From a virus (lineage: Duplodnaviria; Caudoviricetes), in IMG/VR virus record IMGVR_UViG_3300005805_000063, positions 1 to 64,000 of that record: a DNA stretch of 64,000 bases; one strand, given 5' to 3'. This document shows, in pieces, positions 18,661-34,016 of this stretch. How positions within the stretch are numbered: position 1 is the first letter of the stretch; every line of letters begins with the position of its first letter. The position numbers were made by a program, and so were the translations under genes. The notes below the pieces were generated by a model, which was given only the letters and a program-made list of their open reading frames with translations, was not told the origin of the DNA and did not search any database.

Positions 18661-21600
18661 CTATCTTGGATTTACGTAACTTCCGCTTACCTCATCGTAG
18701 ACTTTAATTGAGCATTTTGCCATGTTGTTCTCAGTCTCTTTATTAGTCGTATAAGGGACAAACTTGTTTTTTCCAACATTCATTAATGCCCTCTGAATCC
18801 GGTCGTTTACAGGCATTTGACTGTTTTTAAACGCAAGATACTCATATTCTATATTAAAATTTTCGTATTGCTCAAGCGTTTCAAAGGCATTATAGGGCAA
18901 GGCAGTCGAGTAGGTGCCATCGGCTAATTTGACCGGGGAAGTCCACCTTTTCATTCTGAAATTGACTTCTAATACCTTTTTATCAACCCGGACAACAGGA
19001 TTGTTATTAACCATAATAACAGCTGCTGCGTAAGGAGATATCGATAATTTATTGATATAAGTCACATACTCAACATTGATAGGCTCCTTAAAATCCTTTG
19101 AGATATAAGTTTTCTTTCCTACCAATTTTGCAGGGTTCTTTTCAAACTTAAAGTCTGAATAAGGTATTGCAAGATTATTTAATTTGGCCCTGCCATGTTC
19201 ATTTGCAATTTCCTGATTAATTGCATCTGCAAGACTCTTGTTAGGAATGTTAACTTCATAATCAAGGAAATTGATATAATCTGATTTATCATCGATTGAC
19301 ATCAGACTGGTAAATGAGCCTTTTGAATTTCTATCTCTTGTTACAATGAGATTGTAAATAAACAGACGTTTGCGGTCAATAGGCTCAAGTCTCTGAAATT
19401 CTTCCATGTATAACGCACGCAAGTCATCATTCATGTCATAGAAATCATACATCCTGATTTTTGATTCTTTTGTAAAATCATTGGTATCCAAAGTCAAATC
19501 CTTTATGAATTCGTTATCTGGATATTTTGACTTAAGATTCAAAAGACTGTTGTTGACTTCATTAATAAACTGAATCCGACCCTCGTATGAACCGAGATTT
19601 GCAGTTGTAATCAAAGAGGTATCTCTTGAGTTCAGATAGGCGTGAATGTACATTCCATGAACAGTGTTATAATCCCTTGTAAAGTTTTTTGGATTATAAC
19701 GATAATTAATTGAAACGCCTTCCTTAGGCTCTGAAAGCAAAGCCTCATTTCTCAAATTCTCACTAGTCACAGCATATATAGTATTATACGCTTTGATGTC
19801 CTTAAACATATTATGAGCCTGAGCGATTGCTTCCTGATATGCACGCATGTGAGGAGCATTGTCAAATATCTCAAGAATATTGTTGTCGTGATTTCCAGTA
19901 GCAATCAGAGAATCATACAATTTTATCTGCCTCTCAGCATAGCTGCGGTCATCTGAGAAGAATCTTTCAAAATTAAATGGTTCGGTCTGTAAACCTGCTT
20001 TTGAGTAAGACATGTTTACATAATTCTCAAGAGTCAGGATATGAGATGCAATATCTTCCATCGTGATAGGGATATCACGATTAATAAGACTTTGGGTCAA
20101 TACATCCCATTCTGTTTTATACAAATACAACTTCTGCATCTCAAGGGGTTGACTGTTAATGTTAAACCCTTTAGTTGAGTTGTATTCTTTTGACTTCCTT
20201 ATTGCATCAAAGAATGGTTTTTTTGCATTGATATATTCAGCAATTTGGGAAATGCTCATTCCTGTAGATACAAGATAGCTTATGTACGGAGCAGTAATTT
20301 GGTCAAATGACAGAGGACCAAGTACTCCTTCGTTTGCATTATCAACAGCTGCAGAAATCAGAGATGCAAAATTCTCCCAAATCTTATCCGGTTCGCCGGA
20401 GAAATCTTTTCCTTCTTTAATTTCCTTAAGTCTCTTTGCAAGATAGATGACATTATATGCTTTTGCACCATTTGCAAATATGCCTACAAGATTTTTACCA
20501 CCTGCCTGATTCATTTCGTGGATTTGCAGAAGCGACATCAGATGGTCAAACTTAAGTTTCTGCTCTTCAGAAGAACCTTCAAGAATAACTTCTTTCAAAG
20601 CTCGTAACTCTGTCATTACATCTTCCAATGTAGTGTTAAGTTCAATGAGTGATTTTGAATCGGACAAAACATCATTCATTGCTCGTGCAAGCTCGTTCTT
20701 CTGAGCTATCTTTTGGATAGCTTTCAAATCCTCTTTTGAGAAATTCTTAACTGATTTAATCTCATTAAGATTAGATTCAAAAGGAATCAATCCGGTAGGG
20801 CGTACATTCTTTACAACAAATTGAGAGTAATTGGGATTTCTAGGATCATAGGTCTTAATCTCACGACCTCCTTTAACGGTCGGGTCAACCATAGTATATT
20901 CCTTAATACTCTGATAGGTTACATATGAACCTTTGTCATAGTCTTGGTCAGCACCCTGTACAGTAAACAATTCGGCAGGTACCATAACTGAATTCATCGA
21001 CCCTTGGAAGAATCCTGCAATTACAGTCGAAACGGCAGAGTGCTTTCCAGATGTAGGAATCCTTGCCATTACTCCTTCAAGACGTGTCCTGAAAGACTCA
21101 TACATCAGTTTTGCCCTCTTCTTTTTGTTATCAGAAATTATCTTTGAATTGAATTCGTCTGGAGTTAACAGTTTTTGCAAGAAATACCTCTCATTGATTT
21201 CGTCAATTGGAATATTATTGGCAATAACATCATCCAATTCAAAGTCCTCAAACATTTCGGCAGGAAGAAGGATTTCGGCAAATCCCTTTGACCATTTATC
21301 ATTCCTAAGTGAGTTGTTTATTGTTTCTTGGTCAATCCCAGTTTCATACATCTCAGTCAGTGAAACTCCATCCTCACGAACAGGAGACTGCCATTTAAGT
21401 CTGCGTGAAGTGATTTTATATTTTTGTGTATCTAAGTTTCTAACTTGAGATTTAAGAAGAATCCGTTTTACAGGCGATTTTGTAGTTATATTGGCTTGTG
21501 GTTGAGCAAATGTATTAGCGTATACATCACGTATAGCTTGTTTACCTTGTTCAGTAATTTGTCTAGTTCCAATTCCAGCAAAATTCTTTTTAAGAACAGG

Positions 21601-24600
21601 TACTGCAGACTGAACAAACATCTGACCGTTCCAAGTATACCAGTTGTTATCTTTTTGGTTAAATACATGGATTTCACGGTTATTAGCCTGACCCATAGCA
21701 ACCGCCCAACCAGTACCACCCTCTACAGTTTTCATATCCTCACTAATAGGAGCAACAGCTACAATCTGTTCAGAGTTTTTAACTTGAAACCAGTTACGGG
21801 CAAGAAGGTTAATTGTCTCAGTTTTCTGAGGATTTTTACCAAGTACTACCGCAGCTTTACGCATCTCAGCAATACCTTCCTGAAGCTGCTCTTTAGTAAG
21901 AAGTACATTACCTTTAGGAGTCTTATTTCCATAGTAGTAATGCTGATGATTTACAACCCCGACTTTTCTACCCTCATCGTCCCATATAGAATCTGCACCT
22001 AAAGCACCACCAGAGTGGTTAGTGTACTCGGCTGGATTATTTATTTCATATATAGTAGGTTTAACAGCAGATTGACCAGCTTGTGGTTGAGATAAAGCAG
22101 CTAGTTCTGCATCATATTTAGCGTTTATTACATCTTCTATTGTAAATGCAGCATAGACCTGTCCACCCATTAATCTAATGGTAGCACCTTCTGGTAAATT
22201 AATCTGTTTACCATCAATAGTAAATTCAACCCTATTATCTTCTTTACTAGCTTTAATATAAGTAATATTCCAGCCGAAATTATCTTTAAAAAATTTACCT
22301 ATTTTAGATAGTTTCTGTTCGACAGTTACACCTTCTGGAGCAATTACTTCACCATACTCTTTGGTTAAAGTTTTACTTTTTTCTATATCAGCTTTCTTAT
22401 CAGAAACAGAAACTTTACTACGTTCAATAATAACTCCATTAATAAAATCAGGTATATCTACCATACCACGCATAGAGCCATCCGCTTTTACAACTTTTCC
22501 ATTTCTAAAATAAGTTACTCTTCCATTTGGTTCAATTAATTTATCGCCTTCTTGAAGTTGTTTTTTAAAATTTTCTGCTATCTCATTATTTTTGTCTGCT
22601 TCTACAGAAGATAACGCTTTACCACTTTTACCTTTAGCTCCACCAAGTTCACGAAATGTAAAATAACGTGGTATTTCTATTCTTTCTATATCAGCTTTCT
22701 TAGCTTCTACTTCCGCATACTGAGAGTATAGTTGTTGAGCTTGTTGTTTATTTTTTAACTGCACTTCAAAGTAAGAACCTTTATCAATAGCGTAACCTTT
22801 GTCTAATAAAGATTTCCAAACTTTATTTGCAGATTTATTAATATCTGCTTTGCCAAAAGCTTCTGATTTTAAGGTTTTACCTTCTTTAGCTAATTGTTCT
22901 GCTAAAGCAATATATACTTTTGTTCCATACCCTTTACCTTGAAATTCCTTTTCAAGTTCTACACCAGCCATACCTATAGAAGATGATATATAACCATTTT
23001 TATCTACAGATATTACACCTGCATATTTCCCATTTATTTTAATAGGATACGATGTTGCCTCAAAATTATCAGGATTAAATCTTGGTTCATCTAATTGTAT
23101 TTCAGAAGTATTAGGCGCGGCTTCTTCTGTAGATATCTCTTCAACTTCATAAACATCCATCAAAGAAGGATGGATTACAAAATGACCACCTTGTAACCCA
23201 AAGGCAACCGCTGAGTTACGGATGTTAGTTGCAATTGTTTGAGTATACTTTGGAGCAATTGTCCTGTCATTAATTGACAGACGATTTACTGAAGCAGCAT
23301 CGGTTCGATAATTAGACCCATCAGTTGAGAGTAAATCCTCTCTCATGATTTCGCTAAAATATTTTACCCTTTCAGCAACTTTCATTTTACTAAGTTCCTG
23401 AATATATGACTTTGTCATATCAGACAAAGTATCATAGAACTTCTTCAGAACCGGAGAGTTGACCCAGTTAATTGCTATGGCGTTGACTAATTGGGTCAGT
23501 ACATTTACCTCCATTCCTTGAGACGGGTCTTTGGCACCATCTTGCTGGATACCCTTCATTGTAATATCAATGGTGGATACCTTAGGATTTGGGTCTGAAA
23601 GTTTGTTTACTCCTCGCTGACCAGTCTTTTCAGAAGATTGAAAAATAGCTTCATCAACAATATAGTCTTGAAAACCATTCTCAACCATTATGTCCATTGC
23701 CTTTTCAAAAATACCTTCTTGCTTTGTTGCATTTGAAAAATTAGGATTCATTCCTAATGCAATGATAAGCTGATAAGCATTTGACACAGATTCGCCATTG
23801 ACCTGAATGACTTCGGGGAAAGTCATAGCAGAGGTCATCTGAACAAATTTTTCTATTACAAATTCGTTTCCGTTTTCAAGAATATACGGAGTGATTTCAA
23901 ATTCGGCATTCTTAACAAATGATTTTGTTCCTGATTCAAAATCATTTGAATGAGTGATGTTCTTCATAACAGGACCTACAAAAGGACCTGCGTCAAGTGC
24001 ACTTGAGTAATTCTGTTTTATTCTGGTAAATGGTGTTACCAGTGTAGCACCATCCATCCATTTTTGAGATACAATTTGACCGTTTGAAAACTTAAGTACA
24101 TTATTAATAGGGTCTTCAAAACGCATTACATTTGCAACCCTTGAAAGCTTTTTACCTTCATACATCAATGAGTATGGAAGAGGCTTTCCAGGATTTTGTT
24201 GCCTGAACAATGCAACGTCAGCTGCCCAATTTTTATTCCTCAGTATAAAATACGACTCGGGAGAAATCAAAGACTTAGAGCGTTTTACCATGTCGATAAA
24301 AGCTTTCTGTCCTGACTCCTTATACTGGTATTTTGGACCATTCATTAAATGCTGAAACTCTCCACTAAAGAGTAGCCAGTTGGCGTAGAAGGTTTTAATA
24401 AACTCTTCCGGAGTAGCCTTACTAGAAGTTATAGCTATTTGGTTGTAAAGAGTTACGCCACCACCTCTTTGATTCTTTGAATATTCAACAACTTTCTGTG
24501 CATCTGCAAGAATACGGTCTATAAAAGCCTGTTTATTTGCAGGATTCATGTACATATTAATGTCATCAATCAATTCTTGTTTGATTGACAAAGGTCCTTT

Positions 24601-27600
24601 TACAGACTTCTCATTGTAATGCACACCGGATACCATATTAGGGTACGATATCAAGGTGTTGATTTGGTCTTCAGTAAGTTTTGAAAGTATAGAATTAAGT
24701 TCTCCAATGCTTTTTGCAGAAATTCCAACTTCGCGATAGTCATTCAAAATTTTGAATTCCAAACCAGCATAATACTTGGTTCTGCTATCAAACAAATCTC
24801 CAAGTGTTTTTTCTGCTGGCTGCAGGAAATTATTTGAATAGAAAATTGGAGATATCTCCTGACTTGCATCTGCATAAACTGTAATCGGGAAAGTAGCTTC
24901 GTTTCTTCCGTTTTCAATCTGAGTTACATACCCCTCAATCAAATAGAGGTCAAGAAGTTCAGGAACAGTTAGCTGACTTACCGACTTAGTAAATTCAAAT
25001 CCGTTTTTATTAATTTTAAATCCAAGATGTGTAAACGGAGGCTTTGAAGAAATTCCATAGGAGGAGTTTCCATCCACCAAAAGATTTGTCTGAAGTAGTG
25101 GACTTTTCTGAGCACTTGAAACAACATGTTTCAAATGGAAAATAGGAGCACTATCTCGAAGACCGTACTGACGTTTTCCAGTCCCATCTTTAAATGAGAA
25201 GTCATTTCCTAATCCTTTTGCAGAAACAAACTGCTCAATTATTTTATCCATTACCAATCCAAGGGACGGCAAAGAGGCCTGCTTTTTATTGTAGTTCTTT
25301 ACAGAAGCAAAGAAGTAATCCTGAATCTGACCAAGAATTGTAGGGTCTACTGCAATGGCATCTTGAAGCATTTCAGATGTAAATCCTTCAAATCCCATGC
25401 CCTTGAGCATGCGTAAAGCATTCTCGGGAGTTACATTTTTTTCAACTGTATAGAGTTGACCATTGAGATTTACATCACCGTTAGAAACTGAAATTCTTCC
25501 TGTGCTAAGGATTCTTGCGAACTTGTCCAGGAATTGAGTTTTGATGTACTGAGGATTAAATCCACCAATTGGAAGCTTAGCCGTTCTTTGCTCACTAGAT
25601 GTATTCTCGTCATAATAAACGTTAACATCTACAAATCCAGGTGAATAAACTTGACCTTTGGTAAGAAAGCTGAGTATTGCGTTGGTTAAATTCTGACCAG
25701 CAGGCGTCTCTACTCCACGAGTAGAGTAAGTAAGGTTATTGGTTTGTGACCCTGTAACAGATGAGGGTTCTGGGGATTTTGAGAAGAATCGCTTATAGAT
25801 GGCCTTTGCCTCTGGCAATGAGGAGTTGCTTAAAACTTCTGCAATTTCATCCAATGTTCTAATGGCCTGTCCGTCTGAATTTGTGTTATTCTTAATCAGC
25901 TTAAGGACATTGGATATATTCTTAGAGGTGATGTAATTTCCATTTGCAAGTCTGGTATTGTACAGATAAGTTTTTACAATGGAGTTCATGCCATCTCCAA
26001 GGAGATTCTCCATTTCTTTTTCTGCAAAAGAACCGGATTTTGACAGGTCATTTCCGTAGTAATACTCGTCTTTTGAACTATTATATTTTATAGAAGGAAA
26101 GTACTGTGCCAGTAATCCATTGAAATTGCTTCCCAAAGCATACTGAATTCGAGACTCAGTATTTGTCTTTTGGGACATGAGATTGCCATTTGACAAATAA
26201 ATCTTTTTCAGATTTGTCATTGCCTCGTTTGCATCAAGGATTCTGGGAGTTCCGCCTTCAGGAACTGTCAGAACAAGATGGCTTGCAACAACATCCTTCT
26301 TGAATTTATCAATTGCTTTTCTTGCAAGGTTAGGTTGATTTGGAAATTCCCTCCTTCTGAATTCAACAATTGAAATCGGATTTACTGAGATGGCCGGTCC
26401 TTGTACAGATTCTTGTACACTTTGTTGTACAGTTTGTTGTACAGTTTTACCAACTGGTTGAACCGGAGCAGCTTCCTTATTTTGAGTAGATATCTCAGAA
26501 AGAACTGCCTCAATTGGAATCTGTATCTTAGGAAGATCCAATTTAAAGTAGTTTGCAGAAATAACCCTATTGAGGAAATTTTCCTGATATGGTACAGATT
26601 GAGCATAAAGATTTTGCTCAAATCCTGAACTACCTTTTGACAAAACCGGACTAAACCGAAGACCTCTTGAGAAGGCTTTATTCTCCATCATAGCCATTAA
26701 GAGTTTCCTCTTAGGCTCTGAGTTCATATTTAAAAGTTTCTTTGCGTCCTTCTCAAGAGAGATTTTAACATAATCATCTAGCAAATACTCAACTGGATAT
26801 CCGCCCTCAACTCTTATCTTTTTACCATTGGCAAGAATTACTTCATGCGCTTTTCTTTCGACATCCATCTTCTTCAAGAACATGTCTACTTGAGGGTCTT
26901 TTTTAGACAGCTCTTGTTTTACATTATTGAAAATCTCTTCGTAAAGACGTTTGCCCTTTGACCTAGGTGATTGCCAAAATGAATTGTAGAGATTTTTAAA
27001 TTCAGCACTTGTTGCTTCGTAGTAGCCTTTCTGATTTCTACTATAAAACGGAGAAAGTAATTCAACAATTTGGTCCAAGCTCAATGACTCACGATTTAGA
27101 GTCATTGTTTTGATGTCGTCTCCTAAAACATCAAATTCATTGTTATACATCTGCCTGGCCGAGTGTTTATAACTCAGTGCAACAAATGGCTCTCCTTTCA
27201 GTACGGATACTTTTCCTTTTGAATTAATTATGTCAGCCGTTGCTATTAAAATAGGACTTACAGCAATTCCTTTTGACTTTGCCTCTGATAAGATATTTGA
27301 GTATGTCTTTTTATCAACGGCTTCAGATTGCTTATTTCCATCCGGAGATACATTTTTTGAAGAAGATTCATTTTCAATAAAAGGGTGAAAGAACTGACCC
27401 GCCCGTAATATATTATTTGAAACCGGATATGTTGCTACAATATCCTTTGTTTCACCTTGCGTAATAATATTAAGATTTCGCAAGGTTGTTTCAACCTTCT
27501 CACCTCCGGCACGATATATTACACCAAGCACAGCCCGCTTGTTATCCGGAGTAACTGCTTCAAGAAAGATTGCGTACTTTCCATTGAATTTGGAGGAATC

Positions 27601-30600
27601 AATTCTTGCATCTGCAACATATCCCGGAGAACCTATTTTGGCAATTGTAACCTGATAGTTTGAGTTATCGCGGACGCTTGGATTAAACAGAATTGATTTC
27701 TTTATTTCCAACTCACCCTGAACATCATAGAATGTATTTAACAATACCCTGTTTTCGGTATTGGTCATTGCATTCATTATCCTGCGGTAATCAGCCATCT
27801 CCAAATCATCCTGACTTACAGGGCTAGGAGCAGAAGTTTCAGTTGTTGTTGGTGTCTGAACAACTGGAGGAACGGCCTGAGAAGGAGTTTTGATTGTCTC
27901 CGCAGGATTAAAAGAAGAATCAATTGTTTGGCCTTGAAGGATGCTGTCAATTTCACCAAGCATGGTCTGCTGTGAAATTTCAGGAGGTGTCATTGGCTTA
28001 AATTCCTTAACTACCCCCTCAACAGAGCTTACAGGCATTGAAGGAGATGCGTAAACAATCACACCTTTCTTTGCCCGTGTAACGGCTGTATATACTTCTT
28101 TCTGACGGATACTTGAGCCAAATATTTCACCATCAGAAGTATCAACAACCACATAATCCCATTCATCACCTTGAGATTGTACGCTATCAAGTACATTCAG
28201 TGAAAGTGCACTTGCAGAAGATACAGCTGTATTTTCAGGATTAGCATTGATGTAAACCATTGAAGAGAGATTCTTTTCACTCTTCAGTTTTGTTGCCAAG
28301 TCAACTACTAATTTTTCAAGTTCTTCTTTATTGCTTACAAAGCGGACTCCGTTAAAATCCTTATCGTAATTCAGAGCAATATTTGAAGGAAGAGCATTGG
28401 AAAACTGGGAATTCCTTAAAGCATTTTCAAGAGCTTTTAAAGGATTGTTTACAGACCTGAATGAGAATGTCAGCCTCGGAGTTGATGGTACAGAAATTAC
28501 AGGACTTGTAATTGAGTAAGTAGTTTTGCTGTTTTTCTCCCTAAATCCATTTTGTGCTTCATCATAAGTATAAATTAAATGAACTGGATTATTTGGACGG
28601 GATTGATTTACTCTTAAAAGCTCAGTGTTGATTTTATTCAATTCACTTGCACTCAGCAAAGCGGCTTCATCAAATATGATTGCAGATACATTTTTAACCT
28701 CATTGGATTTCAAGATATCAATAAGGCTTGAATCAGAATGCTGAATAAAATCAGGCTTTCCTTTAAAGAACTTTTCTACATCACTACGAACCTTCTGTAT
28801 TTTCTTTCCTGAAGGGTCTTTATAAGCAGTTACAATGACATTTCCACCTGTCATTTTATTTATCATAGCTGCGATAAAAGGAATTTCCGTAACCGTTTTA
28901 CCTGTTCCGGGGCCTCCGTTTACTGCAGAAGTATAACTTAAATGAAACAGTTCTCTGCTAGAATTTTTTACCCTGAAGTCATAATTACCAGCCATTGCAT
29001 TTCGCAATGCCAATTCTGCAACAAGCTGATGTTCCCTGGTAGGGGTTTTGACATCGGGTTTAAGTTCAGCAATTACCTCGCGTGCTGCCTGAACAAACTT
29101 TGTTGGGTCGTTTGAAAGAACAGCACGAGCGTAATCATAGGTATTCTTTGCCAAAATACCTTCATCGGATAACAATTCCGGGTCACCTCCCTTAAATGTC
29201 TTTTGAAGTTTCTGCAGTACTTCGGTTCTCTGACTTCTAACAAAGTCAAACATCTTTTTATCAACCTGAAGTGACTCTCGACGATAGCTGATATAATCTT
29301 GCTTATCAAGAGCTTCCTGCATTTCTACTTCATGCTCAGAGAAGATTTCGCCTATTTTTGGAATATCAGTCTCAAGAAGCTTTACAAAATTCTGTAAAAC
29401 ATTAAACTGCTTCTCAAGTGACTTTATATAAACCTGAAGAATCCTTGCATCGGTATTCTTTTCATTTTCATCAGAAAGAGCTTTGAGTTGTGCAAACTGG
29501 CCTTTCAGAGTGGCCAATGTCAACAGTGCATTCTTAGTATCATATACTTCTGCGCTGATAATTTCATTGTAACCTTTCTTATTCTTAAGAGCGTAGTTAC
29601 CTAATACTTGGGAAATCCTGTCGTCAATTACCTGTATAATACGGTCAGGCTCAGGGCTTACAAACATTTTAGAAAGCCTGTCAGACTCTTCTTTAGGAGT
29701 TCCGGTTAATTGACCAGCAGCTCTGGCAAGCTCTTCCAATTTAGATTCTAAAGGAACGGTTGATTTACCATTCTCAAAATCATAATATAAATGAGAGTCA
29801 CCCTCAATATCAGGAGCTGTTTTATAAGTTTTCTTTTGAGAAACTTTATTTACTAATTCCTCGGCTGCAAACAAAGGAGCAACTTTTGCATACCACTCCT
29901 CATTCTTATAAGGTTCAACTGCTCTTTTTAATACTTCCTGTGAGAATCGGAAACTAAATTCCGGATTTGACGTATGTACAAGAGAAGCATCAAAATCTTC
30001 ATCATCTGCAAAGATTTCATTAATGATGTTATCAACTCCTGAGTTTTTATAATTTTCTACTTCCTGATTTCTGCGGGCATTTGCCTCATCCAAAAGACGC
30101 TGTTTGGCATCTGGAGTTATGTCAAGCTCATTAAAGTTGTCCAAATTTGCTTTGGCTGAGTTTTGAATAAGCTCTTGATTTCGCTTTGAAACCTCAGATT
30201 TCAACCTGTCACGATTGTTCCTTGAATCAGTATTCATCAAGGTGAATAACTTACCATTAAAATGGTCGTTATTTCGTAATCCAAATTCAGTCAGACCTTC
30301 AATTCCCAAATCTGAGGAGTCAATAACTGTTGATTTCAGATGTGGATTACTCTCGACATTATAGAGACCTTCAGTAATATATCTTGAAACCTGAGACCCG
30401 GAATTAAATTCAGAAATCTCAGCTTTTTTAGCCTCGACTTGTTTGGTGAGATTTTCAATCAGCTGTTTGTCATCTGCTTTTTCTGCATTTTCAAGCTGAT
30501 TGGTAAGAGTTGCTAGTTCATTTTGCAGGATGATTTTATCCCTGCCAATTGAACTGGATTTTAATATATCCGCAAAAATGCCTGCTTTCTTCTCATTGTT

Positions 30601-32265
30601 TTTAATAGCATCCGTAATACCCGCCCTGTCACGGATAGTGGACATTGTGTTTAGAATCTCTCTGAGAGCAGTTGCATTTCTTGTGTTCTCGTCTCCCGTT
30701 TTTCCATCTTTTGACAAACGACCTGCTTTTTCCCAATCGTTAATCATTTTATGTACAAAACCTTCGTCATTAAAAGCAACAGCTGCTTCAAATGAATCAA
30801 CTAATTCCCTATCATAGTTTGATAACTTTTTAAGAATGGGGTGTGCAATAGCACCGCCAAATGCACCTCCAGCACCTGACTGAAGAATTGCTTCAACTTC
30901 CCTTCCCAAATCCCACTGAAAGCGACCCTGTAGAGGTAGCAGCTCCGCCATTACATTATGCAGACCTCTGATACCAGTATCTACAGTTTGTTCTCCCATT
31001 TCCTCAATACCTTCAAGGAATGAGGTTTTAACATAAGGCTTTGATGAAAGAGATATCAAAGCACTTTCAAACGTTCTGCCTACTCGATTTTGAAAAGATT
31101 TTAATGCAGATTCGGTGAATCCTTTCTTTGCAATTGTAACTCCATAGTCTTGAGCAAGTTTTGGAGCTATTATCTTTTCAAGCTCAAGAGGCCTGATTCC
31201 GCGAACAATCATGTCGCTTAATCCTGACAACTTATATATTGCAGCTGCATTTGCACCATATAGAATTGCAGTTTCAACAGGACTGAGATTATTTTCCCGT
31301 GAAATTTGAGCCATGGGGCCTGCTGCCATTCCAGTCATGTAAATTCGACCGGCTGCTGATGCAGTTTTTGCAGAGCCAGAAAGTGCTCCTGCAACTTTTC
31401 CAACTGCACCCATGCTAAACAACTGCATGACAGAATCAAGACCAAGTTCTGCCAAGTGTACAGGACTAAAGAAGTTTTCTTTGGTTCTATCACTAGAGGG
31501 AAGGAGATTTTGTTTCAGTTGATTTTGTATGCCAGAAACATCTGCTCCAAAAACCCTTGGAAACTCAAGCAATGAGCTGCTTGTACTATTTATAAAATTT
31601 GGAACAGATTTAACTACTGTATAAAATCCCTCAGACAGATAACTGGGATTTAAACCATAAATGCCCATGTTATGGGCAAAAGAATCATAGCTTTCATCAA
31701 AGCTTCTGAACTCCTCATCGGCCTTAATTGGTTCCCAATAAGTACGATTGTGAGAGTCTCTTTTATAATTACCAAATTCATCCTTGGCAAGCTTAATATC
31801 TCCCTTATACTGGGCTACAGGTATATATTCATCTCCTATTTTTACACCTGTTTTAATTGCTTGCTCCCGCTCACTAAATTTCTTGGGAGAATAGTAATCT
31901 CCAAAGTTATTTCTTCCAAAAGGGTCTTCTATCTGAGTTTTTGTTGAAAAACCAATAAGAGGTTTACGAGACCACTTATCTGTTGCAACATCTATATTGA
32001 AGTCAAGTTCGTAATCGGACTTTTTTGTCTGATTGTAAACTTCTTTTTGCTTAGAGTAAAAATCAATAAAAGAGTTCTTATCATTCTTAAAATGCTCCTG
32101 AACAACAGGAGTTTTCCAGTATGTATCGAGATTCTCATCAAAGTTGAAATCAGACGCCTTTACCCCAGCAGCCATCAGCTGAGATGGAGTTTTCAGTTGT
32201 CCCGAGATGGCAGATGCAATCCAGTCTGGTTTCGGAGCTTGAGGAATTTGATTTTCATCTCCCAT
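18661..32265 (-). CDS. Giant virion-packaged RNA polymerase (crAss/phi14:2 gp66-like) fused to an SF1 helicase, with inserted GNAT-like and SLOG-like domains
   Basis: 4534 aa. Catalytic DxDxD as VQGADQDYDK (nt 20935-20949), preceded by ARIPTSG. Beta-like motifs DMVKRSK, WMDGATLVTP and FVKNAEF. Helicase motifs GGPGTGKT, IIFDEA, YDEAQ, SQGDEWDYV and YTAVTRAK. Occupies the cargo position after the muzzle gene. Confidence 0.85.
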   Translation of the reverse strand: MGDENQIPQAPKPDWIASAISGQLKTPSQLMAAGVKASDFNFDENLDTYWKTPVVQEHFKNDKNSFIDFYSKQKEVYNQTKKSDYELDFNIDVATDKWSRKPLIGFSTKTQIEDPFGRNNFGDYYSPKKFSEREQAIKTGVKIGDEYIPVAQYKGDIKLAKDEFGNYKRDSHNRTYWEPIKADEEFRSFDESYDSFAHNMGIYGLNPSYLSEGFYTVVKSVPNFINSTSSSLLEFPRVFGADVSGIQNQLKQNLLPSSDRTKENFFSPVHLAELGLDSVMQLFSMGAVGKVAGALSGSAKTASAAGRIYMTGMAAGPMAQISRENNLSPVETAILYGANAAAIYKLSGLSDMIVRGIRPLELEKIIAPKLAQDYGVTIAKKGFTESALKSFQNRVGRTFESALISLSSKPYVKTSFLEGIEEMGEQTVDTGIRGLHNVMAELLPLQGRFQWDLGREVEAILQSGAGGAFGGAIAHPILKKLSNYDRELVDSFEAAVAFNDEGFVHKMINDWEKAGRLSKDGKTGDENTRNATALREILNTMSTIRDRAGITDAIKNNEKKAGIFADILKSSSIGRDKIILQNELATLTNQLENAEKADDKQLIENLTKQVEAKKAEISEFNSGSQVSRYITEGLYNVESNPHLKSTVIDSSDLGIEGLTEFGLRNNDHFNGKLFTLMNTDSRNNRDRLKSEVSKRNQELIQNSAKANLDNFNELDITPDAKQRLLDEANARRNQEVENYKNSGVDNIINEIFADDEDFDASLVHTSNPEFSFRFSQEVLKRAVEPYKNEEWYAKVAPLFAAEELVNKVSQKKTYKTAPDIEGDSHLYYDFENGKSTVPLESKLEELARAAGQLTGTPKEESDRLSKMFVSPEPDRIIQVIDDRISQVLGNYALKNKKGYNEIISAEVYDTKNALLTLATLKGQFAQLKALSDENEKNTDARILQVYIKSLEKQFNVLQNFVKLLETDIPKIGEIFSEHEVEMQEALDKQDYISYRRESLQVDKKMFDFVRSQRTEVLQKLQKTFKGGDPELLSDEGILAKNTYDYARAVLSNDPTKFVQAAREVIAELKPDVKTPTREHQLVAELALRNAMAGNYDFRVKNSSRELFHLSYTSAVNGGPGTGKTVTEIPFIAAMINKMTGGNVIVTAYKDPSGKKIQKVRSDVEKFFKGKPDFIQHSDSSLIDILKSNEVKNVSAIIFDEAALLSASELNKINTELLRVNQSRPNNPVHLIYTYDEAQNGFREKNSKTTYSITSPVISVPSTPRLTFSFRSVNNPLKALENALRNSQFSNALPSNIALNYDKDFNGVRFVSNKEELEKLVVDLATKLKSEKNLSSMVYINANPENTAVSSASALSLNVLDSVQSQGDEWDYVVVDTSDGEIFGSSIRQKEVYTAVTRAKKGVIVYASPSMPVSSVEGVVKEFKPMTPPEISQQTMLGEIDSILQGQTIDSSFNPAETIKTPSQAVPPVVQTPTTTETSAPSPVSQDDLEMADYRRIMNAMTNTENRVLLNTFYDVQGELEIKKSILFNPSVRDNSNYQVTIAKIGSPGYVADARIDSSKFNGKYAIFLEAVTPDNKRAVLGVIYRAGGEKVETTLRNLNIITQGETKDIVATYPVSNNILRAGQFFHPFIENESSSKNVSPDGNKQSEAVDKKTYSNILSEAKSKGIAVSPILIATADIINSKGKVSVLKGEPFVALSYKHSARQMYNNEFDVLGDDIKTMTLNRESLSLDQIVELLSPFYSRNQKGYYEATSAEFKNLYNSFWQSPRSKGKRLYEEIFNNVKQELSKKDPQVDMFLKKMDVERKAHEVILANGKKIRVEGGYPVEYLLDDYVKISLEKDAKKLLNMNSEPKRKLLMAMMENKAFSRGLRFSPVLSKGSSGFEQNLYAQSVPYQENFLNRVISANYFKLDLPKIQIPIEAVLSEISTQNKEAAPVQPVGKTVQQTVQQSVQESVQGPAISVNPISIVEFRRREFPNQPNLARKAIDKFKKDVVASHLVLTVPEGGTPRILDANEAMTNLKKIYLSNGNLMSQKTNTESRIQYALGSNFNGLLAQYFPSIKYNSSKDEYYYGNDLSKSGSFAEKEMENLLGDGMNSIVKTYLYNTRLANGNYITSKNISNVLKLIKNNTNSDGQAIRTLDEIAEVLSNSSLPEAKAIYKRFFSKSPEPSSVTGSQTNNLTYSTRGVETPAGQNLTNAILSFLTKGQVYSPGFVDVNVYYDENTSSEQRTAKLPIGGFNPQYIKTQFLDKFARILSTGRISVSNGDVNLNGQLYTVEKNVTPENALRMLKGMGFEGFTSEMLQDAIAVDPTILGQIQDYFFASVKNYNKKQASLPSLGLVMDKIIEQFVSAKGLGNDFSFKDGTGKRQYGLRDSAPIFHLKHVVSSAQKSPLLQTNLLVDGNSSYGISSKPPFTHLGFKINKNGFEFTKSVSQLTVPELLDLYLIEGYVTQIENGRNEATFPITVYADASQEISPIFYSNNFLQPAEKTLGDLFDSRTKYYAGLEFKILNDYREVGISAKSIGELNSILSKLTEDQINTLISYPNMVSGVHYNEKSVKGPLSIKQELIDDINMYMNPANKQAFIDRILADAQKVVEYSKNQRGGGVTLYNQIAITSSKATPEEFIKTFYANWLLFSGEFQHLMNGPKYQYKESGQKAFIDMVKRSKSLISPESYFILRNKNWAADVALFRQQNPGKPLPYSLMYEGKKLSRVANVMRFEDPINNVLKFSNGQIVSQKWMDGATLVTPFTRIKQNYSSALDAGPFVGPVMKNITHSNDFESGTKSFVKNAEFEITPYILENGNEFVIEKFVQMTSAMTFPEVIQVNGESVSNAYQLIIALGMNPNFSNATKQEGIFEKAMDIMVENGFQDYIVDEAIFQSSEKTGQRGVNKLSDPNPKVSTIDITMKGIQQDGAKDPSQGMEVNVLTQLVNAIAINWVNSPVLKKFYDTLSDMTKSYIQELSKMKVAERVKYFSEIMREDLLSTDGSNYRTDAASVNRLSINDRTIAPKYTQTIATNIRNSAVAFGLQGGHFVIHPSLMDVYEVEEISTEEAAPNTSEIQLDEPRFNPDNFEATSYPIKINGKYAGVISVDKNGYISSSIGMAGVELEKEFQGKGYGTKVYIALAEQLAKEGKTLKSEAFGKADINKSANKVWKSLLDKGYAIDKGSYFEVQLKNKQQAQQLYSQYAEVEAKKADIERIEIPRYFTFRELGGAKGKSGKALSSVEADKNNEIAENFKKQLQEGDKLIEPNGRVTYFRNGKVVKADGSMRGMVDIPDFINGVIIERSKVSVSDKKADIEKSKTLTKEYGEVIAPEGVTVEQKLSKIGKFFKDNFGWNITYIKASKEDNRVEFTIDGKQINLPEGATIRLMGGQVYAAFTIEDVINAKYDAELAALSQPQAGQSAVKPTIYEINNPAEYTNHSGGALGADSIWDDEGRKVGVVNHQHYYYGNKTPKGNVLLTKEQLQEGIAEMRKAAVVLGKNPQKTETINLLARNWFQVKNSEQIVAVAPISEDMKTVEGGTGWAVAMGQANNREIHVFNQKDNNWYTWNGQMFVQSAVPVLKKNFAGIGTRQITEQGKQAIRDVYANTFAQPQANITTKSPVKRILLKSQVRNLDTQKYKITSRRLKWQSPVREDGVSLTEMYETGIDQETINNSLRNDKWSKGFAEILLPAEMFEDFELDDVIANNIPIDEINERYFLQKLLTPDEFNSKIISDNKKKRAKLMYESFRTRLEGVMARIPTSGKHSAVSTVIAGFFQGSMNSVMVPAELFTVQGADQDYDKGSYVTYQSIKEYTMVDPTVKGGREIKTYDPRNPNYSQFVVKNVRPTGLIPFESNLNEIKSVKNFSKEDLKAIQKIAQKNELARAMNDVLSDSKSLIELNTTLEDVMTELRALKEVILEGSSEEQKLKFDHLMSLLQIHEMNQAGGKNLVGIFANGAKAYNVIYLAKRLKEIKEGKDFSGEPDKIWENFASLISAAVDNANEGVLGPLSFDQITAPYISYLVSTGMSISQIAEYINAKKPFFDAIRKSKEYNSTKGFNINSQPLEMQKLYLYKTEWDVLTQSLINRDIPITMEDIASHILTLENYVNMSYSKAGLQTEPFNFERFFSDDRSYAERQIKLYDSLIATGNHDNNILEIFDNAPHMRAYQEAIAQAHNMFKDIKAYNTIYAVTSENLRNEALLSEPKEGVSINYRYNPKNFTRDYNTVHGMYIHAYLNSRDTSLITTANLGSYEGRIQFINEVNNSLLNLKSKYPDNEFIKDLTLDTNDFTKESKIRMYDFYDMNDDLRALYMEEFQRLEPIDRKRLFIYNLIVTRDRNSKGSFTSLMSIDDKSDYINFLDYEVNIPNKSLADAINQEIANEHGRAKLNNLAIPYSDFKFEKNPAKLVGKKTYISKDFKEPINVEYVTYINKLSISPYAAAVIMVNNNPVVRVDKKVLEVNFRMKRWTSPVKLADGTYSTALPYNAFETLEQYENFNIEYEYLAFKNSQMPVNDRIQRALMNVGKNKFVPYTTNKETENNMAKCSIKVYDEVSGSYVNPR
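22380..22702. repeat. Pair of exact 20-bp direct repeats (TTTCTATATCAGCTTTCTTA; encodes part of KKADIE) 303 bp apart, in frame, inside the vRNAP insert
   Basis: Read directly at 22380-22399 and 22683-22702. Confidence 0.85.
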
Positions 32266-32273
32266 GTTATGCT

Positions 32274-34016
32274 TTAATTATTTTGGTTGAGGGTTTCAAA
32301 TGTTGCAAAACGCCGTTTGTTTGCTTCAATAAACTCGTTTGTACCAACTTCATCTCCGGTAGGATAGTAATTATTAGCCTTTGGCTCATATCCCGCAGGA
32401 ATACCGGACAGTTTATTAAACAGTTTGGGGTCGGTATACTCACCAAAGATAGGAAATTCCCAAACATCATTATTAAATGCACTACGCCAAAAAGATTCAT
32501 TTTCTCTAGAACCAGATGTTGTATGCAGTTTTAATTCATTTATTGTATTGTCATCTACCTGACTTGGAGCATATCCTATTGAGGTAAGGAAATTATATAC
32601 CTGCTTATAGTCATCAGATGTTCTATCCCCTTGAAATTGACCTTTAAGTATTACTGCACTAGATACTGGATTTTTAGTATCTTCTCTTGCACCAATTACT
32701 TCCTTTAAACCTTTTCCAGAATTGCTTATAAGTGTAGAACCTAAGAAATCCGGCTTTGCAACAATTTCGCTGAAGAGCTTTTGCATAGCGGGAGGAATTG
32801 GGACTAGTTTCCCAGCATTAGGACCATCAACCGCTGGAATGTACATGTTCTGAGCTCCAATTGCCTGAGTTGCATATAAATCATTAAAGTTCCTTTTTGC
32901 AACAGGAGACTCGTCATCTCTAACTTTAACGGATGTTTTAGATTTATCTAAAATAGTAGAAGGGTCAACTCGATGATATGGAACTTCAGACTTTCTACCG
33001 CCAAATCCAAAGTCAATATATTCAGAAGGTCTTCCTAAACCTCCGGTTGCCTGCAATTCAAAATGACTTATGGGAGCCAATCCCTGTAATTCCTTGGAGG
33101 CTTGGAGACTAGTGCTTACTCCAACTCCCCTTTCTTGTACATATTGAGACTCGGCAATTTCTTTGATAAAATTCAAAAAGTATTGATTTGCCTGTTCTTC
33201 ACTTGGTTTTACACCTTCATTTAACGCCTTAGTTACATAAGCACCATAAATTGTATTTTTCTCCTGAACAGAAAGTCCAATTCCGTTTAATAAAAGATTT
33301 GCCTTTTTTGCAATAGAAGCTCGATTGTCTTTTGTGGTAACATTGTAAAGATTTCCAACAGCTTCATCTTTTACATAACCTTTTGTATCTAAAAAGTTAT
33401 TTACAGAATTACGAACATCTTCCATTTTAGCCATGTTCATGGCAAATGGCTCATCTTTATTAACAAAGCCTCTTACTGATGTTAAATGATTATATTGTTC
33501 AGCACCTGTTATGGGAGTATATTCATTTTCATTAAATAAGAAGGCAGATACATTTTCTACTGCTTTTGTTTTCTTATTAATTGCTTTTATACGACCTGAA
33601 TCGTAATTGTAATATGGAAGATTTCCCTTTTCAGATTCCTTTTTATATTCTTCTTGAGAAAGCTTAAATGCATTTTGAGCGTAATTAAGTTTTGGATTGT
33701 TTACATAATACTGTAATCCTTTTACTTTATCTTTCCCTTCCCTGCTAAAAGCATAAAAAGGATTCTCATTATACTTATTTAAGTAATCGGTTATTTGAGA
33801 CTGTATCTCAGAAGTAACAAGCGATGCACTAGCTGGGTCAAGGTCATACTTACTTACCGTATCCATCAATTTTGCATAGTCAGGGGTAAGCTGAGCAGCT
33901 TCTGCTAAAAGCTGAGACCTACCCTGACGCGCAATTGCATTTCTAATTCCTTTTCTTGATGGACCTGTAACCCTGAAGCCTTGTGCAGGAGGAATCAAAG
34001 AATCTAAATCAGCCAT
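32274..34016 (-). CDS. Putative ejected/cargo virion protein
   Basis: 580 aa with a helical N-terminus; lies between the small cargo genes and the vRNAP, as in crAss-like gene order. Confidence 0.55.
   Translation of the reverse strand: MADLDSLIPPAQGFRVTGPSRKGIRNAIARQGRSQLLAEAAQLTPDYAKLMDTVSKYDLDPASASLVTSEIQSQITDYLNKYNENPFYAFSREGKDKVKGLQYYVNNPKLNYAQNAFKLSQEEYKKESEKGNLPYYNYDSGRIKAINKKTKAVENVSAFLFNENEYTPITGAEQYNHLTSVRGFVNKDEPFAMNMAKMEDVRNSVNNFLDTKGYVKDEAVGNLYNVTTKDNRASIAKKANLLLNGIGLSVQEKNTIYGAYVTKALNEGVKPSEEQANQYFLNFIKEIAESQYVQERGVGVSTSLQASKELQGLAPISHFELQATGGLGRPSEYIDFGFGGRKSEVPYHRVDPSTILDKSKTSVKVRDDESPVAKRNFNDLYATQAIGAQNMYIPAVDGPNAGKLVPIPPAMQKLFSEIVAKPDFLGSTLISNSGKGLKEVIGAREDTKNPVSSAVILKGQFQGDRTSDDYKQVYNFLTSIGYAPSQVDDNTINELKLHTTSGSRENESFWRSAFNNDVWEFPIFGEYTDPKLFNKLSGIPAGYEPKANNYYPTGDEVGTNEFIEANKRRFATFETLNQNN

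What the first reader, a model, noticed from the sequence alone, without database searches (positions are those of the whole stretch)
28050..28930. Complete superfamily-1 (RecD/UvrD-like) helicase fused into the 4534-aa virion RNA polymerase
Seen: motifs appear in correct order and spacing at about aa 1115-1395: I GGPGTGKT, II IIFDEA, III YDEAQ, V VQSQGDEWDYV and VI YTAVTRAK. Established: the phi14:2 vRNAP (gp66) is about half this size and transcribes single-stranded templates in vitro. Inference: a covalently linked helicase could supply ssDNA template or ratchet the genome into the cell, giving a one-chain unwinding-and-transcription machine.
Basis: partly seen in the sequence, partly recalled or inferred. 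Interest (0 to 1): 0.75.

Follow-up and report, generated by a model that had tools for sequence, protein, structure and literature searches.

The report
Helicase inside crAss-like virion polymerase
A freshwater crAss-like phage, and about 30 uncultured relatives, carry an apparently active RecD/Dda-type DNA helicase in the same giant protein as their virion RNA polymerase, which may explain how this polymerase obtains the single-stranded DNA template it needs.

Summary
Residues 1054-1420 of the 4534-aa ORF (window 18661-32265, minus strand) form a complete superfamily-1 helicase core. Pfam SLFN-g3_helicase and UvrD_C_2 score above their cut-offs. An AlphaFold model (pLDDT 89.5) superposes on T4 Dda (Z 22.9), RecD and RecD2.

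Walker A Lys, Walker B Asp-Glu, motif III Asp/Gln, motif IV Arg and motif VI Arg are invariant in 30 giant homologues that are as little as 21% identical. An ATPase-dead relic is therefore unlikely.

The C-terminal half is a true phi14:2 gp66-type RNA polymerase (profile E 1e-10, DQDYD motif). By gene order the giant equals phi14:2 g067 plus g066, so the helicase lies in the gp67-equivalent half, about 550 residues before the polymerase module.

An exhaustive search found this helicase type only in giant proteins, always at about residues 1050-1530. Five reference crassviruses lack it. The public crassvirus cr118_1, however, has a different, Dda-like helicase at the C-terminus of its polymerase giant, and this scan has noted similar joins in other genomes.

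The template-supplying role is plausible but untested. I found no paper describing these joins. Verdict: a new variant of a known kind, of moderate interest.

The parts
18661..32265 (-). 4534-aa giant ORF (P0001). It equals phi14:2 g067 (1797 aa) plus g066 (2180 aa) fused, with a lineage-specific insert of about 550 aa.
   Evidence: synteny with phi14:2 g068-g067-g066-g065; full-length colinear homologues
28006..29106 (-). SF1 (RecD/Dda-like, SF1B-type) helicase core, aa 1054-1420: N-terminal helical Q-motif-like region plus two RecA-like domains
   Evidence: Pfam; AF2 model pLDDT 89.5; Foldseek and VIA-align; conservation
28894..28917 (-). Motif I / Walker A, GGPGTGKT (K1123 invariant in 30/30)
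28663..28680 (-). Motif II / Walker B, IIFDEA (D1199 and E1200 invariant)
28552..28566 (-). Motif III, YDEAQ (D1235 and Q1238 invariant; family consensus GDxxQ or YDxxQ)
28453..28467 (-). Motif IV, FSFRS (R1270 invariant)
28150..28176 (-). Motif V, SQGDEWDYV (Q1365 and G1366 nearly invariant)
28069..28092 (-). Motif VI, YTAVTRAK (R1397 invariant; arginine finger by analogy with SF1 enzymes)
27796..27930 (-). Pro/Thr/Ser/Gln-rich disordered linker directly after the helicase (aa 1446-1490)
   Evidence: pLDDT 30-37
26491..27795 (-). Confidently folded alpha/beta region, aa 1491-1925, with no recognisable fold or family
26386..26490 (-). Gln/Val-rich disordered linker, aa 1926-1960; the likely boundary between the gp67-equivalent and gp66-equivalent parts
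   Evidence: offset of the gp66 alignment
18664..26385 (-). gp66-type two-barrel virion RNA polymerase module (aa 1961-4534)
   Evidence: Family profile against phi14:2 gp66 residues 1314-1667, E 1.1e-10, with RIPxxGxxS, DxDxD, GKxxVGixAN and NAxVDNAK blocks aligned
20935..20949 (-). Catalytic DxDxD motif DQDYD (aa 3773-3777), aligned to gp66 DFDID 1361-1365
21466..23118 (-). Lineage-specific insert of about 550 aa (aa 3050-3600) with a GNAT domain and a DprA/SLOG-like domain. It is absent from nearly all homologues and is not part of the helicase finding.
14410..18654 (-). 1414-aa gp65-equivalent downstream protein with an N-terminal RecB-family PD-(D/E)XK nuclease (aa 108-222)
   Evidence: Pfam PDDEXK_1 22.0 bits at the cut-off; AGxxD, DxKT and YSxQxxxY conserved in 7 clade members
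32274..34016 (-). 580-aa gp68-equivalent upstream protein (phi14:2 g068 is 579 aa)

Best explanation
The window is a freshwater crAss-like phage. Its 4534-aa gene fuses the phi14:2 gp67-equivalent virion protein (N half) to the gp66-type two-barrel virion RNA polymerase (C half). Within the gp67-equivalent half, aa 1054-1420 form a catalytically intact SF1 helicase of the RecD/Dda (SF1B) type. All of this is shown. The rest is inferred. The giant protein is packaged and ejected into the host ahead of or with the genome, as its phi14:2 and crAss001 counterparts are. Once refolded in the cytoplasm, the helicase uses ATP to load on and unwind the entering phage DNA, most likely 5'-to-3' from an end or a nick. 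This supplies the single-stranded template that gp66-type polymerases need. It would be a phage-encoded counterpart of the QDE-3 helicase/RPA help given to QDE-1, and of the host gyrase/SSB help given to N4 vRNAP. Tethering through flexible linkers keeps helicase and polymerase together at the entering DNA, whether or not the linkers are later cut.
For: Identity of the helicase: Pfam hits above cut-off; AF2 model pLDDT 89.5, pTM 0.88; best structural matches T4 Dda Z 22.9, DSH9 22.7, RecD 21.3, RecD2 20.4; nearest stand-alone sequence relatives are RecD/RecD2-type (AAA_30+AAA_19+SH3_13+UvrD_C_2). Likely activity: K1123, D1199/E1200, D1235, Q1238, R1270 and R1397 are invariant in 30 homologues down to 21% identity. 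The helicase blocks are as conserved as the RNAP catalytic blocks. Natural variants in three independent metagenome studies carry 4 synonymous and 4 conservative changes, none in a motif. Link to the polymerase: the family profile aligns to gp66 across the catalytic region, E 1.1e-10. The gene order g068-[g067+g066]-g065 is kept. In an exhaustive search of 1.84 billion representatives, every strong match is a giant protein with the helicase at about aa 1050-1530. 26 of the 30 giants, this one included, also carry the D[QL]DxD motif. A second, different (Dda-like, C-terminal) helicase is joined to the RNAP giant of crassvirus cr118_1, so the pairing arose more than once. Need for ssDNA: gp66 does not transcribe dsM13, transcribes native phi14:2 DNA weakly and ssDNA or denatured DNA efficiently; QDE-1 needs QDE-3 and RPA; N4 vRNAP needs host gyrase.
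Against: There are no biochemical data for any member, and no proteomics showing that the helicase part is in the virion or remains attached. Helicase and RNAP are separated by about 550 residues and two disordered linkers. In two relatives the frame is interrupted, so covalent linkage is not obligatory. phi14:2, crAss001 and three other reference crassviruses have no AAA_30 or UvrD_C_2 type helicase at all, so crAss-type vRNAPs can work without one. The core is compact (about 300 aa): no SH3_13 (RecD 2B) domain was reported for it by Pfam, and only about 280 of Dda's 439 residues align. It may therefore be a translocase rather than a strand-separating helicase. The Q-motif Gln is His in this phage.
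Confidence: 0.5

Rival explanations
1. Helicase-nuclease end-processing or anti-host machine. The injected RecD-like helicase works with the RecB-family PD-(D/E)XK nuclease at the N-terminus of the adjacent 1414-aa gp65-equivalent, as in RecBCD, AddAB or Dna2. Together they would resect DNA ends. The target would be either the entering phage genome (exposing ssDNA or blocking host RecBCD) or host DNA.
For: PDDEXK_1 hit at the cut-off. The catalytic AGxxD, DxKT and QxxxY motifs are conserved in 7 clade members. The two genes are adjacent and co-directional throughout the clade. Dna2 and RecD are among the structural matches.
Against: A structural-block PD-(D/E)XK nuclease is reported as a general feature of crAss-like phages, and five reference crassviruses have no such helicase. 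The nuclease therefore does not need this helicase. There is no evidence that the two proteins bind each other.
Confidence: 0.15
2. Genome-internalisation motor. The helicase is anchored at the cytoplasmic exit of the ejection channel and pulls the remaining phage DNA into the cell by ATP-driven translocation, independently of transcription.
For: Other podoviruses complete DNA entry enzymatically, and N4 vRNAP is proposed to pull the genome in. The helicase sits in an ejected cargo protein by synteny.
Against: SF1B enzymes track single strands, not duplex DNA (established knowledge of RecD2 and Dda). I found no hydrophobic segment above the usual transmembrane threshold in the giant protein. 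The polymerase itself could do the pulling.
Confidence: 0.12
3. RNA- or polymerase-directed helicase. The domain would act on the transcript or on stalled polymerase (release, termination, recycling), as nsp13 does with the coronavirus polymerase, Sen1/Upf1 with RNA, or HelD with bacterial RNAP.
For: nsp13 (Z about 20), Upf1, Sen1/SETX and HelD-RNAP complexes (Z 17.3) are all among the structural matches.
Against: The best structural and sequence matches are DNA helicases: Dda, RecD, RecD2 and Pif1. None of the accessory domains that define nsp13, Upf1 or HelD were detected.
Confidence: 0.1
4. Replication or recombination helicase that merely travels in the polyprotein. It would be cut out after ejection or after late synthesis and serve genome replication, with no functional tie to transcription.
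For: Disordered linkers flank the helicase-containing part. Polyprotein cleavage has been proposed for fused crAss giants. cr118_1's C-terminal helicase is an ordinary Dda-like replication-type helicase.
Against: The position is fixed inside the gp67-equivalent across about 30 diverged giants, and no stand-alone copies of this helicase type exist anywhere in 1.84 billion representatives. No conserved zincin protease motif is present in the neighbouring gp65-equivalent of this clade.
Confidence: 0.08
5. Inactive structural relic of a helicase, kept only as a folded spacer.
For: It diverges strongly from all cellular SF1 helicases (E no better than 4e-6). The Q-motif Gln is replaced by His here.
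Against: Every catalytic residue of motifs I, II, III, IV and VI is invariant over 30 sequences at 21-73% identity.
Confidence: 0.03

Closest known systems
Cellulophaga phage phi14:2 virion transcription block g068-g067-g066-g065 (gp66 = virion RNAP, Drobysheva et al., bioRxiv 10.1101/2020.03.07.982082 / Nature 2021)
   Same: Same gene order and sizes: 580 vs 579 aa, 1414 vs 1421 aa, and the giant roughly equals 1797+2180 aa. The catalytic region aligns by profile (E 1.1e-10) with a DxDxD motif. The phi14:2 proteins are virion components by mass spectrometry. Fused 'huge polyprotein' forms are already mentioned in that paper.
   Different: gp67 has no Walker A and no match to the helicase or to the N half of this family. 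The phi14:2 genome has no AAA_30 or UvrD_C_2 domain at all. The motif is DQDYD instead of DFDID. No conserved zincin motif is present in the gp65-equivalent here.
Crassvirus cr118_1 (Besingivirus coli, Suoliviridae) 4,946-aa CDS QOR58373.1, annotated 'DNA helicase' (GenBank MT774379.1)
   Same: A single giant ORF holds both the crAss-type RNAP (DFDID at aa 3209; my family profile hits aa 3169-3473, E 2e-14) and a complete SF1 helicase.
   Different: Its helicase lies at the C-terminus (aa 4464-4913), after the polymerase. It is an ordinary Dda-like helicase with 2,330 phage records matching by tblastn. The helicase here lies N-terminal to the polymerase, matches no GenBank phage record, and matches cr118_1's helicase only weakly (best stretch E 1.4e-5). 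The two are most likely independent acquisitions.
T4 Dda / RecD / RecD2 (SF1B DNA helicases)
   Same: Two RecA-like domains and all SF1 motifs. Structural Z 20-23 over about 280-300 residues. The nearest stand-alone sequence relatives have RecD2-type Pfam architecture.
   Different: Only 12-19% identity. The core is compact, with short hairpins in the model where those helicases carry their accessory domains. It is embedded in a 4534-aa chain and never found as a free protein.
QDE-1 with QDE-3 helicase and RPA (Neurospora RNAi); N4 vRNAP with host gyrase and SSB
   Same: Each is a polymerase that prefers single-stranded DNA templates and depends on a separate DNA-opening activity.
   Different: In those systems the helper is a separate protein, host-encoded in the case of N4. 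Here a helicase is encoded in the same reading frame. The functional link is inferred, not tested.

Membership tests
Superfamily 1 helicases (RecD/Dda-like, SF1B) | Walker A (motif I) GxxxxGK[ST] with catalytic Lys | tested here: met
   GGPGTGKT at aa 1117-1124; G1120 and K1123 invariant in 30/30
Superfamily 1 helicases (RecD/Dda-like, SF1B) | Walker B (motif II) DE | tested here: met
   IIFDEA; D1199 and E1200 invariant
Superfamily 1 helicases (RecD/Dda-like, SF1B) | Motifs III (GDxxQ), IV (Arg), V and VI (Arg finger) in order | tested here: met
   YDEAQ (D1235, Q1238), FSFRS (R1270), SQGDEWD, YTAVTRAK (R1397), all invariant or nearly so. The Gly of GDxxQ is Tyr in this subclade.
Superfamily 1 helicases (RecD/Dda-like, SF1B) | Two tandem RecA-like domains | tested here: met
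   AF2 model pLDDT 89.5; Z 22.9 to Dda, 21.3 to RecD, 20.4 to RecD2
Superfamily 1 helicases (RecD/Dda-like, SF1B) | Curated family score (Pfam gathering threshold) | tested here: met
   SLFN-g3_helicase 30.2 vs 24 and UvrD_C_2 27.9 vs 27.4. AAA_30 (16.1 vs 27) and AAA_19 are below threshold in this sequence but unmarked hits in relative P0019.
Superfamily 1 helicases (RecD/Dda-like, SF1B) | 5'-to-3' polarity, and the pin and 2B/SH3 accessory domains of SF1B | tested here: inconclusive
   Dda, RecD and RecD2 rank top, but UvrD (SF1A) scores Z 21.2, within the tie range. Pfam reported no SH3_13 domain. Polarity can only be measured biochemically.
Superfamily 1 helicases (RecD/Dda-like, SF1B) | ATP hydrolysis and strand separation | not testable with these tools
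   Inferred only from invariant catalytic residues
crAss-type two-barrel virion RNA polymerase (phi14:2 gp66 family) | DxDxD catalytic motif in a conserved block homologous to gp66 | tested here: met
   DQDYD at aa 3773-3777. The family profile aligns to gp66 residues 1314-1667 (E 1.1e-10) and to cr118_1 (E 2e-14).
crAss-type two-barrel virion RNA polymerase (phi14:2 gp66 family) | Position in the crassvirus structural/transcription block | tested here: met
   TerL, portal, MCP, crAss_MUZ (E 6.8e-65), SLT protein, then 754 aa, 580 aa, giant, 1414 aa. The same order holds in phi14:2 and in loci L003-L008 and L016.
crAss-type two-barrel virion RNA polymerase (phi14:2 gp66 family) | Two double-psi beta-barrels seen in a structure | not tested
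crAss-type two-barrel virion RNA polymerase (phi14:2 gp66 family) | Packaged in the virion and ejected | not testable with these tools
   Inferred from the phi14:2 and crAss001 proteomics reported

The most novel reading that the evidence does not exclude
This clade carries a self-sufficient injected 'template generator'. A virion-delivered RecD-like helicase, possibly working with the neighbouring RecB-family nuclease, opens or resects the entering genome. A two-barrel RNA polymerase that cannot melt duplex DNA then receives single-stranded template from its own polypeptide. Helicases have joined crAss-type polymerases at least twice independently, which would mark helicase assistance as a general and so far overlooked requirement of this polymerase family. 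It would mirror QDE-3/QDE-1 in eukaryotic RNA interference.
Probability: 0.3. Interest if true: 0.8.

Novelty: new variant of a known kind. Interest (0 to 1): 0.55.

Why it matters
How crAss-type virion RNA polymerases start transcription on double-stranded phage DNA is an open question. Purified gp66 works only on single-stranded or denatured DNA, and its structure is self-inhibited. Here a catalytically conserved helicase has stayed in the same gene as the polymerase throughout a whole clade. A different helicase joined the polymerase independently in a gut crassvirus. Together these give a concrete, testable candidate for the missing DNA-opening activity. They also offer a compact domain of about 370 residues that could be expressed and assayed without culturing the phage. 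The case further shows that the little-understood gp67-equivalent cargo protein can carry an enzyme.

Tried and rejected
1. tblastn of this helicase and of two divergent clade members against 50,697 GenBank phage records found no match. The RNAP catalytic region also gave no match. tblastn is therefore too insensitive here for its silence to mean much.

2. A single-sequence pattern scan of IMG/VR found nothing. The alignment-based scan gave one locus, L009.

3. phmmer of the giant against phi14:2 gp65-gp68 found nothing. Only the family profile detected gp66. gp67 stayed unmatched, so homology of the N half to gp67 rests on synteny and size alone.

4. The fold of aa 1440-2050 had pLDDT 80, but Foldseek found no match with E <= 0.001 and VIA-align wide found nothing with Z >= 5. 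The region after the helicase remains unassigned. This does not show that the fold is new.

5. A Kyte-Doolittle scan for transmembrane segments peaked at 1.23, below the usual 1.6. I dropped the idea of a membrane-anchored N-terminus.

6. I looked for a zincin HExxH in the gp65-equivalents. It is not conserved in this clade.

7. Sequencing runs: no RNA holder is listed, so there is nothing to say about expression.

8. Paper searches for a helicase in crAss virion RNAP proteins found no description. The library lacks most subscription papers, and Yutin 2018 and the Nature version of Drobysheva 2021 could not be opened.

9. I did not run complex prediction, because no specific binding claim is made.
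Full report
**What is in the window.** The window is a phage genome fragment; the whole record is 86,633 bp. On the minus strand it encodes terminase (53612-55570), portal (51312-53582), major head protein (48737-50197) and an SLT-domain protein (42106-44880). It also encodes a crassvirus muzzle protein (37364-41389; Pfam crAss_MUZ, E 6.8e-65). Downstream of these come ORFs of 754, 580, 4534 and 1414 aa. The terminase is only 24-26% identical to anything in GenBank, and all 131 matching records are crAss-like phages. The DNA recurs at about 99% identity in lake-water, freshwater and sediment metagenomes from three studies. This is therefore a distant, environmental crAss-like phage.

**The observation.**
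- Pfam gives SLFN-g3_helicase (aa 1115-1319, 30.2 bits, cut-off 24) and UvrD_C_2 (aa 1362-1405, 27.9 bits, cut-off 27.4), plus sub-threshold AAA_30 and AAA_19.
- RecD is the only PDB sequence match (E 7.6e-4).
- An AlphaFold model of aa 1050-1450, built with 29 homologues, has pLDDT 89.5 and pTM 0.88.
- Foldseek matches nsp13, Upf1, RecD2, RecD, Dda, Dna2 and Pif1 at E 1e-10 to 1e-13.
- VIA-align ranks T4 Dda (Z 22.9, 282 residues, rmsd 3.4), DSH9 (22.7), RecD (21.3), UvrD (21.2) and RecD2 (20.4) on top.

The domain is a complete two-RecA SF1 core spanning aa 1054-1420. It also has a motif IV (FSFRS) and an upstream Q-motif-like helix.

**Is it likely active?** An exhaustive phmmer search of 1.84 billion representative proteins found 50 hits. 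Every strong hit (E 1e-10 to 1e-186) is a giant protein of 2300-4884 aa with the helicase at about residues 1050-1530. Stand-alone helicases appear only from E 4e-6 upward, and they have RecD/RecD2-type Pfam architecture.

In an alignment of 30 giants that are 21-73% identical to the query domain, these residues are invariant: G1120, K1123 (Walker A), D1199/E1200 (Walker B), N1220, R1223, D1235 and Q1238 (motif III), R1270 (motif IV), G1306 and R1397 (motif VI). Q1365, G1366 and T1393 are nearly invariant. The helicase blocks are as conserved as the polymerase catalytic blocks.

Eight natural variants in independent metagenomes are four synonymous and four conservative changes, none in a motif. 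There is one blemish: the family's Q-motif glutamine is histidine in this phage and three others. An ATPase-dead relic is unlikely.

**Is it fused to the virion RNA polymerase?** Yes, with a qualification. Direct phmmer against phi14:2 proteins finds nothing. A profile of the giant family, however, aligns to gp66 residues 1314-1667 with E 1.1e-10. The matched blocks are RIPttGKHS/RIPNQGQSS, QGADqDiDKG/TGSDFDIDKM, GKxlvGiFAN/GKSGVGITAN and InAavDNAke/LNAFVDNAKD. The same profile hits the DFDID region of crassvirus cr118_1 at E 2e-14.

The gene order and sizes match phi14:2 as follows:

| This window | phi14:2 |
|---|---|
| 580 aa | g068, 579 aa |
| giant, 4534 aa | g067 (1797 aa) + g066 (2180 aa) |
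| 1414 aa | g065, 1421 aa |

The gp66 alignment offset places the junction near aa 1926-1960. This segment is Gln/Val-rich and AlphaFold leaves it disordered. The helicase therefore belongs to the gp67-equivalent half. It is followed by a Pro/Thr/Ser linker (aa 1446-1490) and by a confidently folded region with no recognisable fold (aa 1491-1925). phi14:2 gp67 itself has no Walker A and no match to the helicase.

**How widespread is it?**
- Within this clade it is universal. All 30 giants carry the helicase, and 26 also carry D[QL]DxD at aa 3174-3773.
- Six fetched loci show the same neighbourhood: Ring, Muzzle, a protein of about 600 aa, the giant, then a protein of about 1400 aa.
- In two relatives the frame is interrupted: 2697+1334 aa in L016, and 2300+461+... 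aa in L015. The pieces are colinear with the intact giants. I cannot tell real splits from assembly errors.
- Outside the clade, the helicase profile, Pfam AAA_30 and Pfam UvrD_C_2 find nothing in phi14:2, crAss001, cr106_1, cr273_1 or ProJPt-Bp1. Controls were positive.

Its 4,946-aa CDS QOR58373.1 is annotated 'DNA helicase'. It holds DFDID at aa 3209 and a complete helicase at aa 4464-4913 (AAA_30, 96.9 bits). That helicase is an ordinary Dda-like one, matching 2,330 phage records. It lies after the polymerase and resembles the present helicase only weakly.

Helicases have therefore been joined to crAss-type polymerase giants at least twice, at different positions. cr130_1 and cr272_1 gave no AAA_30 or PIF1 hit.

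**Mechanism.** The established facts come from the literature.
- gp66 does not transcribe double-stranded M13 DNA. It transcribes native phi14:2 DNA weakly and single-stranded or denatured DNA efficiently. Its structural relative QDE-1 needs the QDE-3 helicase and RPA.
- N4 vRNAP likewise needs host gyrase to expose single-stranded promoters.
- crAss001 packages its three RNAP-associated proteins as cargo that must unfold to pass through the tail.

From this I infer that the giant protein is ejected and refolds, and that its helicase opens the entering DNA for the tethered polymerase. This fits three observations: the conserved catalytic residues, the fixed position of the domain, and the recurrence of the pairing.

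It is untested, and there are reasons for caution.
- The polyprotein may be cleaved, as the phi14:2 authors proposed for fused forms. No conserved zincin motif exists in this clade's gp65-equivalent.
- Many crassviruses manage without such a helicase.
- The compact core lacks a detectable SH3/2B domain.

The main rival builds on the neighbouring gene. The 1414-aa protein starts with a RecB-family PD-(D/E)XK nuclease whose AGxxD, DxKT and QxxxY motifs are conserved in seven clade members. An injected helicase-nuclease pair is therefore conceivable. Other rivals are a DNA-entry motor, an RNA- or polymerase-recycling helicase (nsp13 or HelD analogy), a hitch-hiking replication helicase, and a dead relic.

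**Comparison and novelty.** Giant fused crAss transcription-block proteins are known. I found no paper that mentions a helicase in them, though the library is incomplete. GenBank already labels the cr118_1 giant 'DNA helicase', and this scan has reported similar joins in several other genomes.

What is new here is a deeply diverged helicase lineage found only inside giant virion proteins. It sits in the gp67-equivalent part and is conserved across a freshwater clade of about 30 representative clusters. I rate it a new variant of a known kind, with interest 0.55.

Noticed in passing
window 21466-23118 (aa 3050-3600 of the giant): An insert of about 550 aa splits the polymerase module and is absent from nearly all 29 homologues (occupancy 0.01-0.18). 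It carries a GNAT acetyltransferase (Pfam Acetyltransf_1 22.1 bits vs cut-off 20.7, aa 3060-3150) and a DprA/SLOG-like domain (PHROG 768, E 4e-9, aa 3412-3546). It could be an injected effector cassette.
   Followed up: partly
window 17989-18333 (aa 108-222 of the 1414-aa ORF at 14410-18654, minus strand): RecB-family PD-(D/E)XK nuclease at the N-terminus of the gp65-equivalent cargo protein. The AGxxD, DxKT and YSxQxxxY motifs are conserved in seven clade members. No conserved HExxH zincin motif was found, unlike phi14:2 gp65.
   Followed up: partly
L024:4382-19222 (GenBank MT774379.1 16381-31221, cr118_1): A public Suoliviridae crassvirus has a 4,946-aa CDS annotated only as 'DNA helicase'. 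It in fact contains the virion RNAP (DFDID at aa 3209) followed by a C-terminal Dda-like helicase (aa 4464-4913).
   Followed up: yes
L016:10001-22148 and L015:911-9514: In two relatives the giant frame is broken into colinear pieces: 2697+1334 aa with a 49-nt gap, and 2300+461+>=112 aa. These could be real splits, frameshifts or assembly errors.
   Followed up: partly
window 26491-27795 (aa 1491-1925): A confidently predicted alpha/beta region (block pLDDT mostly 85-95) between helicase and polymerase, with no PDB match by Foldseek or VIA-align and no Pfam or PHROG family.
   Followed up: yes
window 31200-31430 (aa ~279-350 of the giant): The best-conserved stretch of the N-terminal region (46% mean identity over aa 301-350) is a Gly/Ala/Met-rich, mildly hydrophobic segment. 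It falls below the usual transmembrane threshold (Kyte-Doolittle 1.14).
   Followed up: partly
whole record (G000, 86,633 bp): The phage occurs at about 99% identity in lake-water (2016), freshwater (2021) and sediment (2023) metagenomes. The record is listed as linear, with an estimated completeness of 56%.
   Followed up: no
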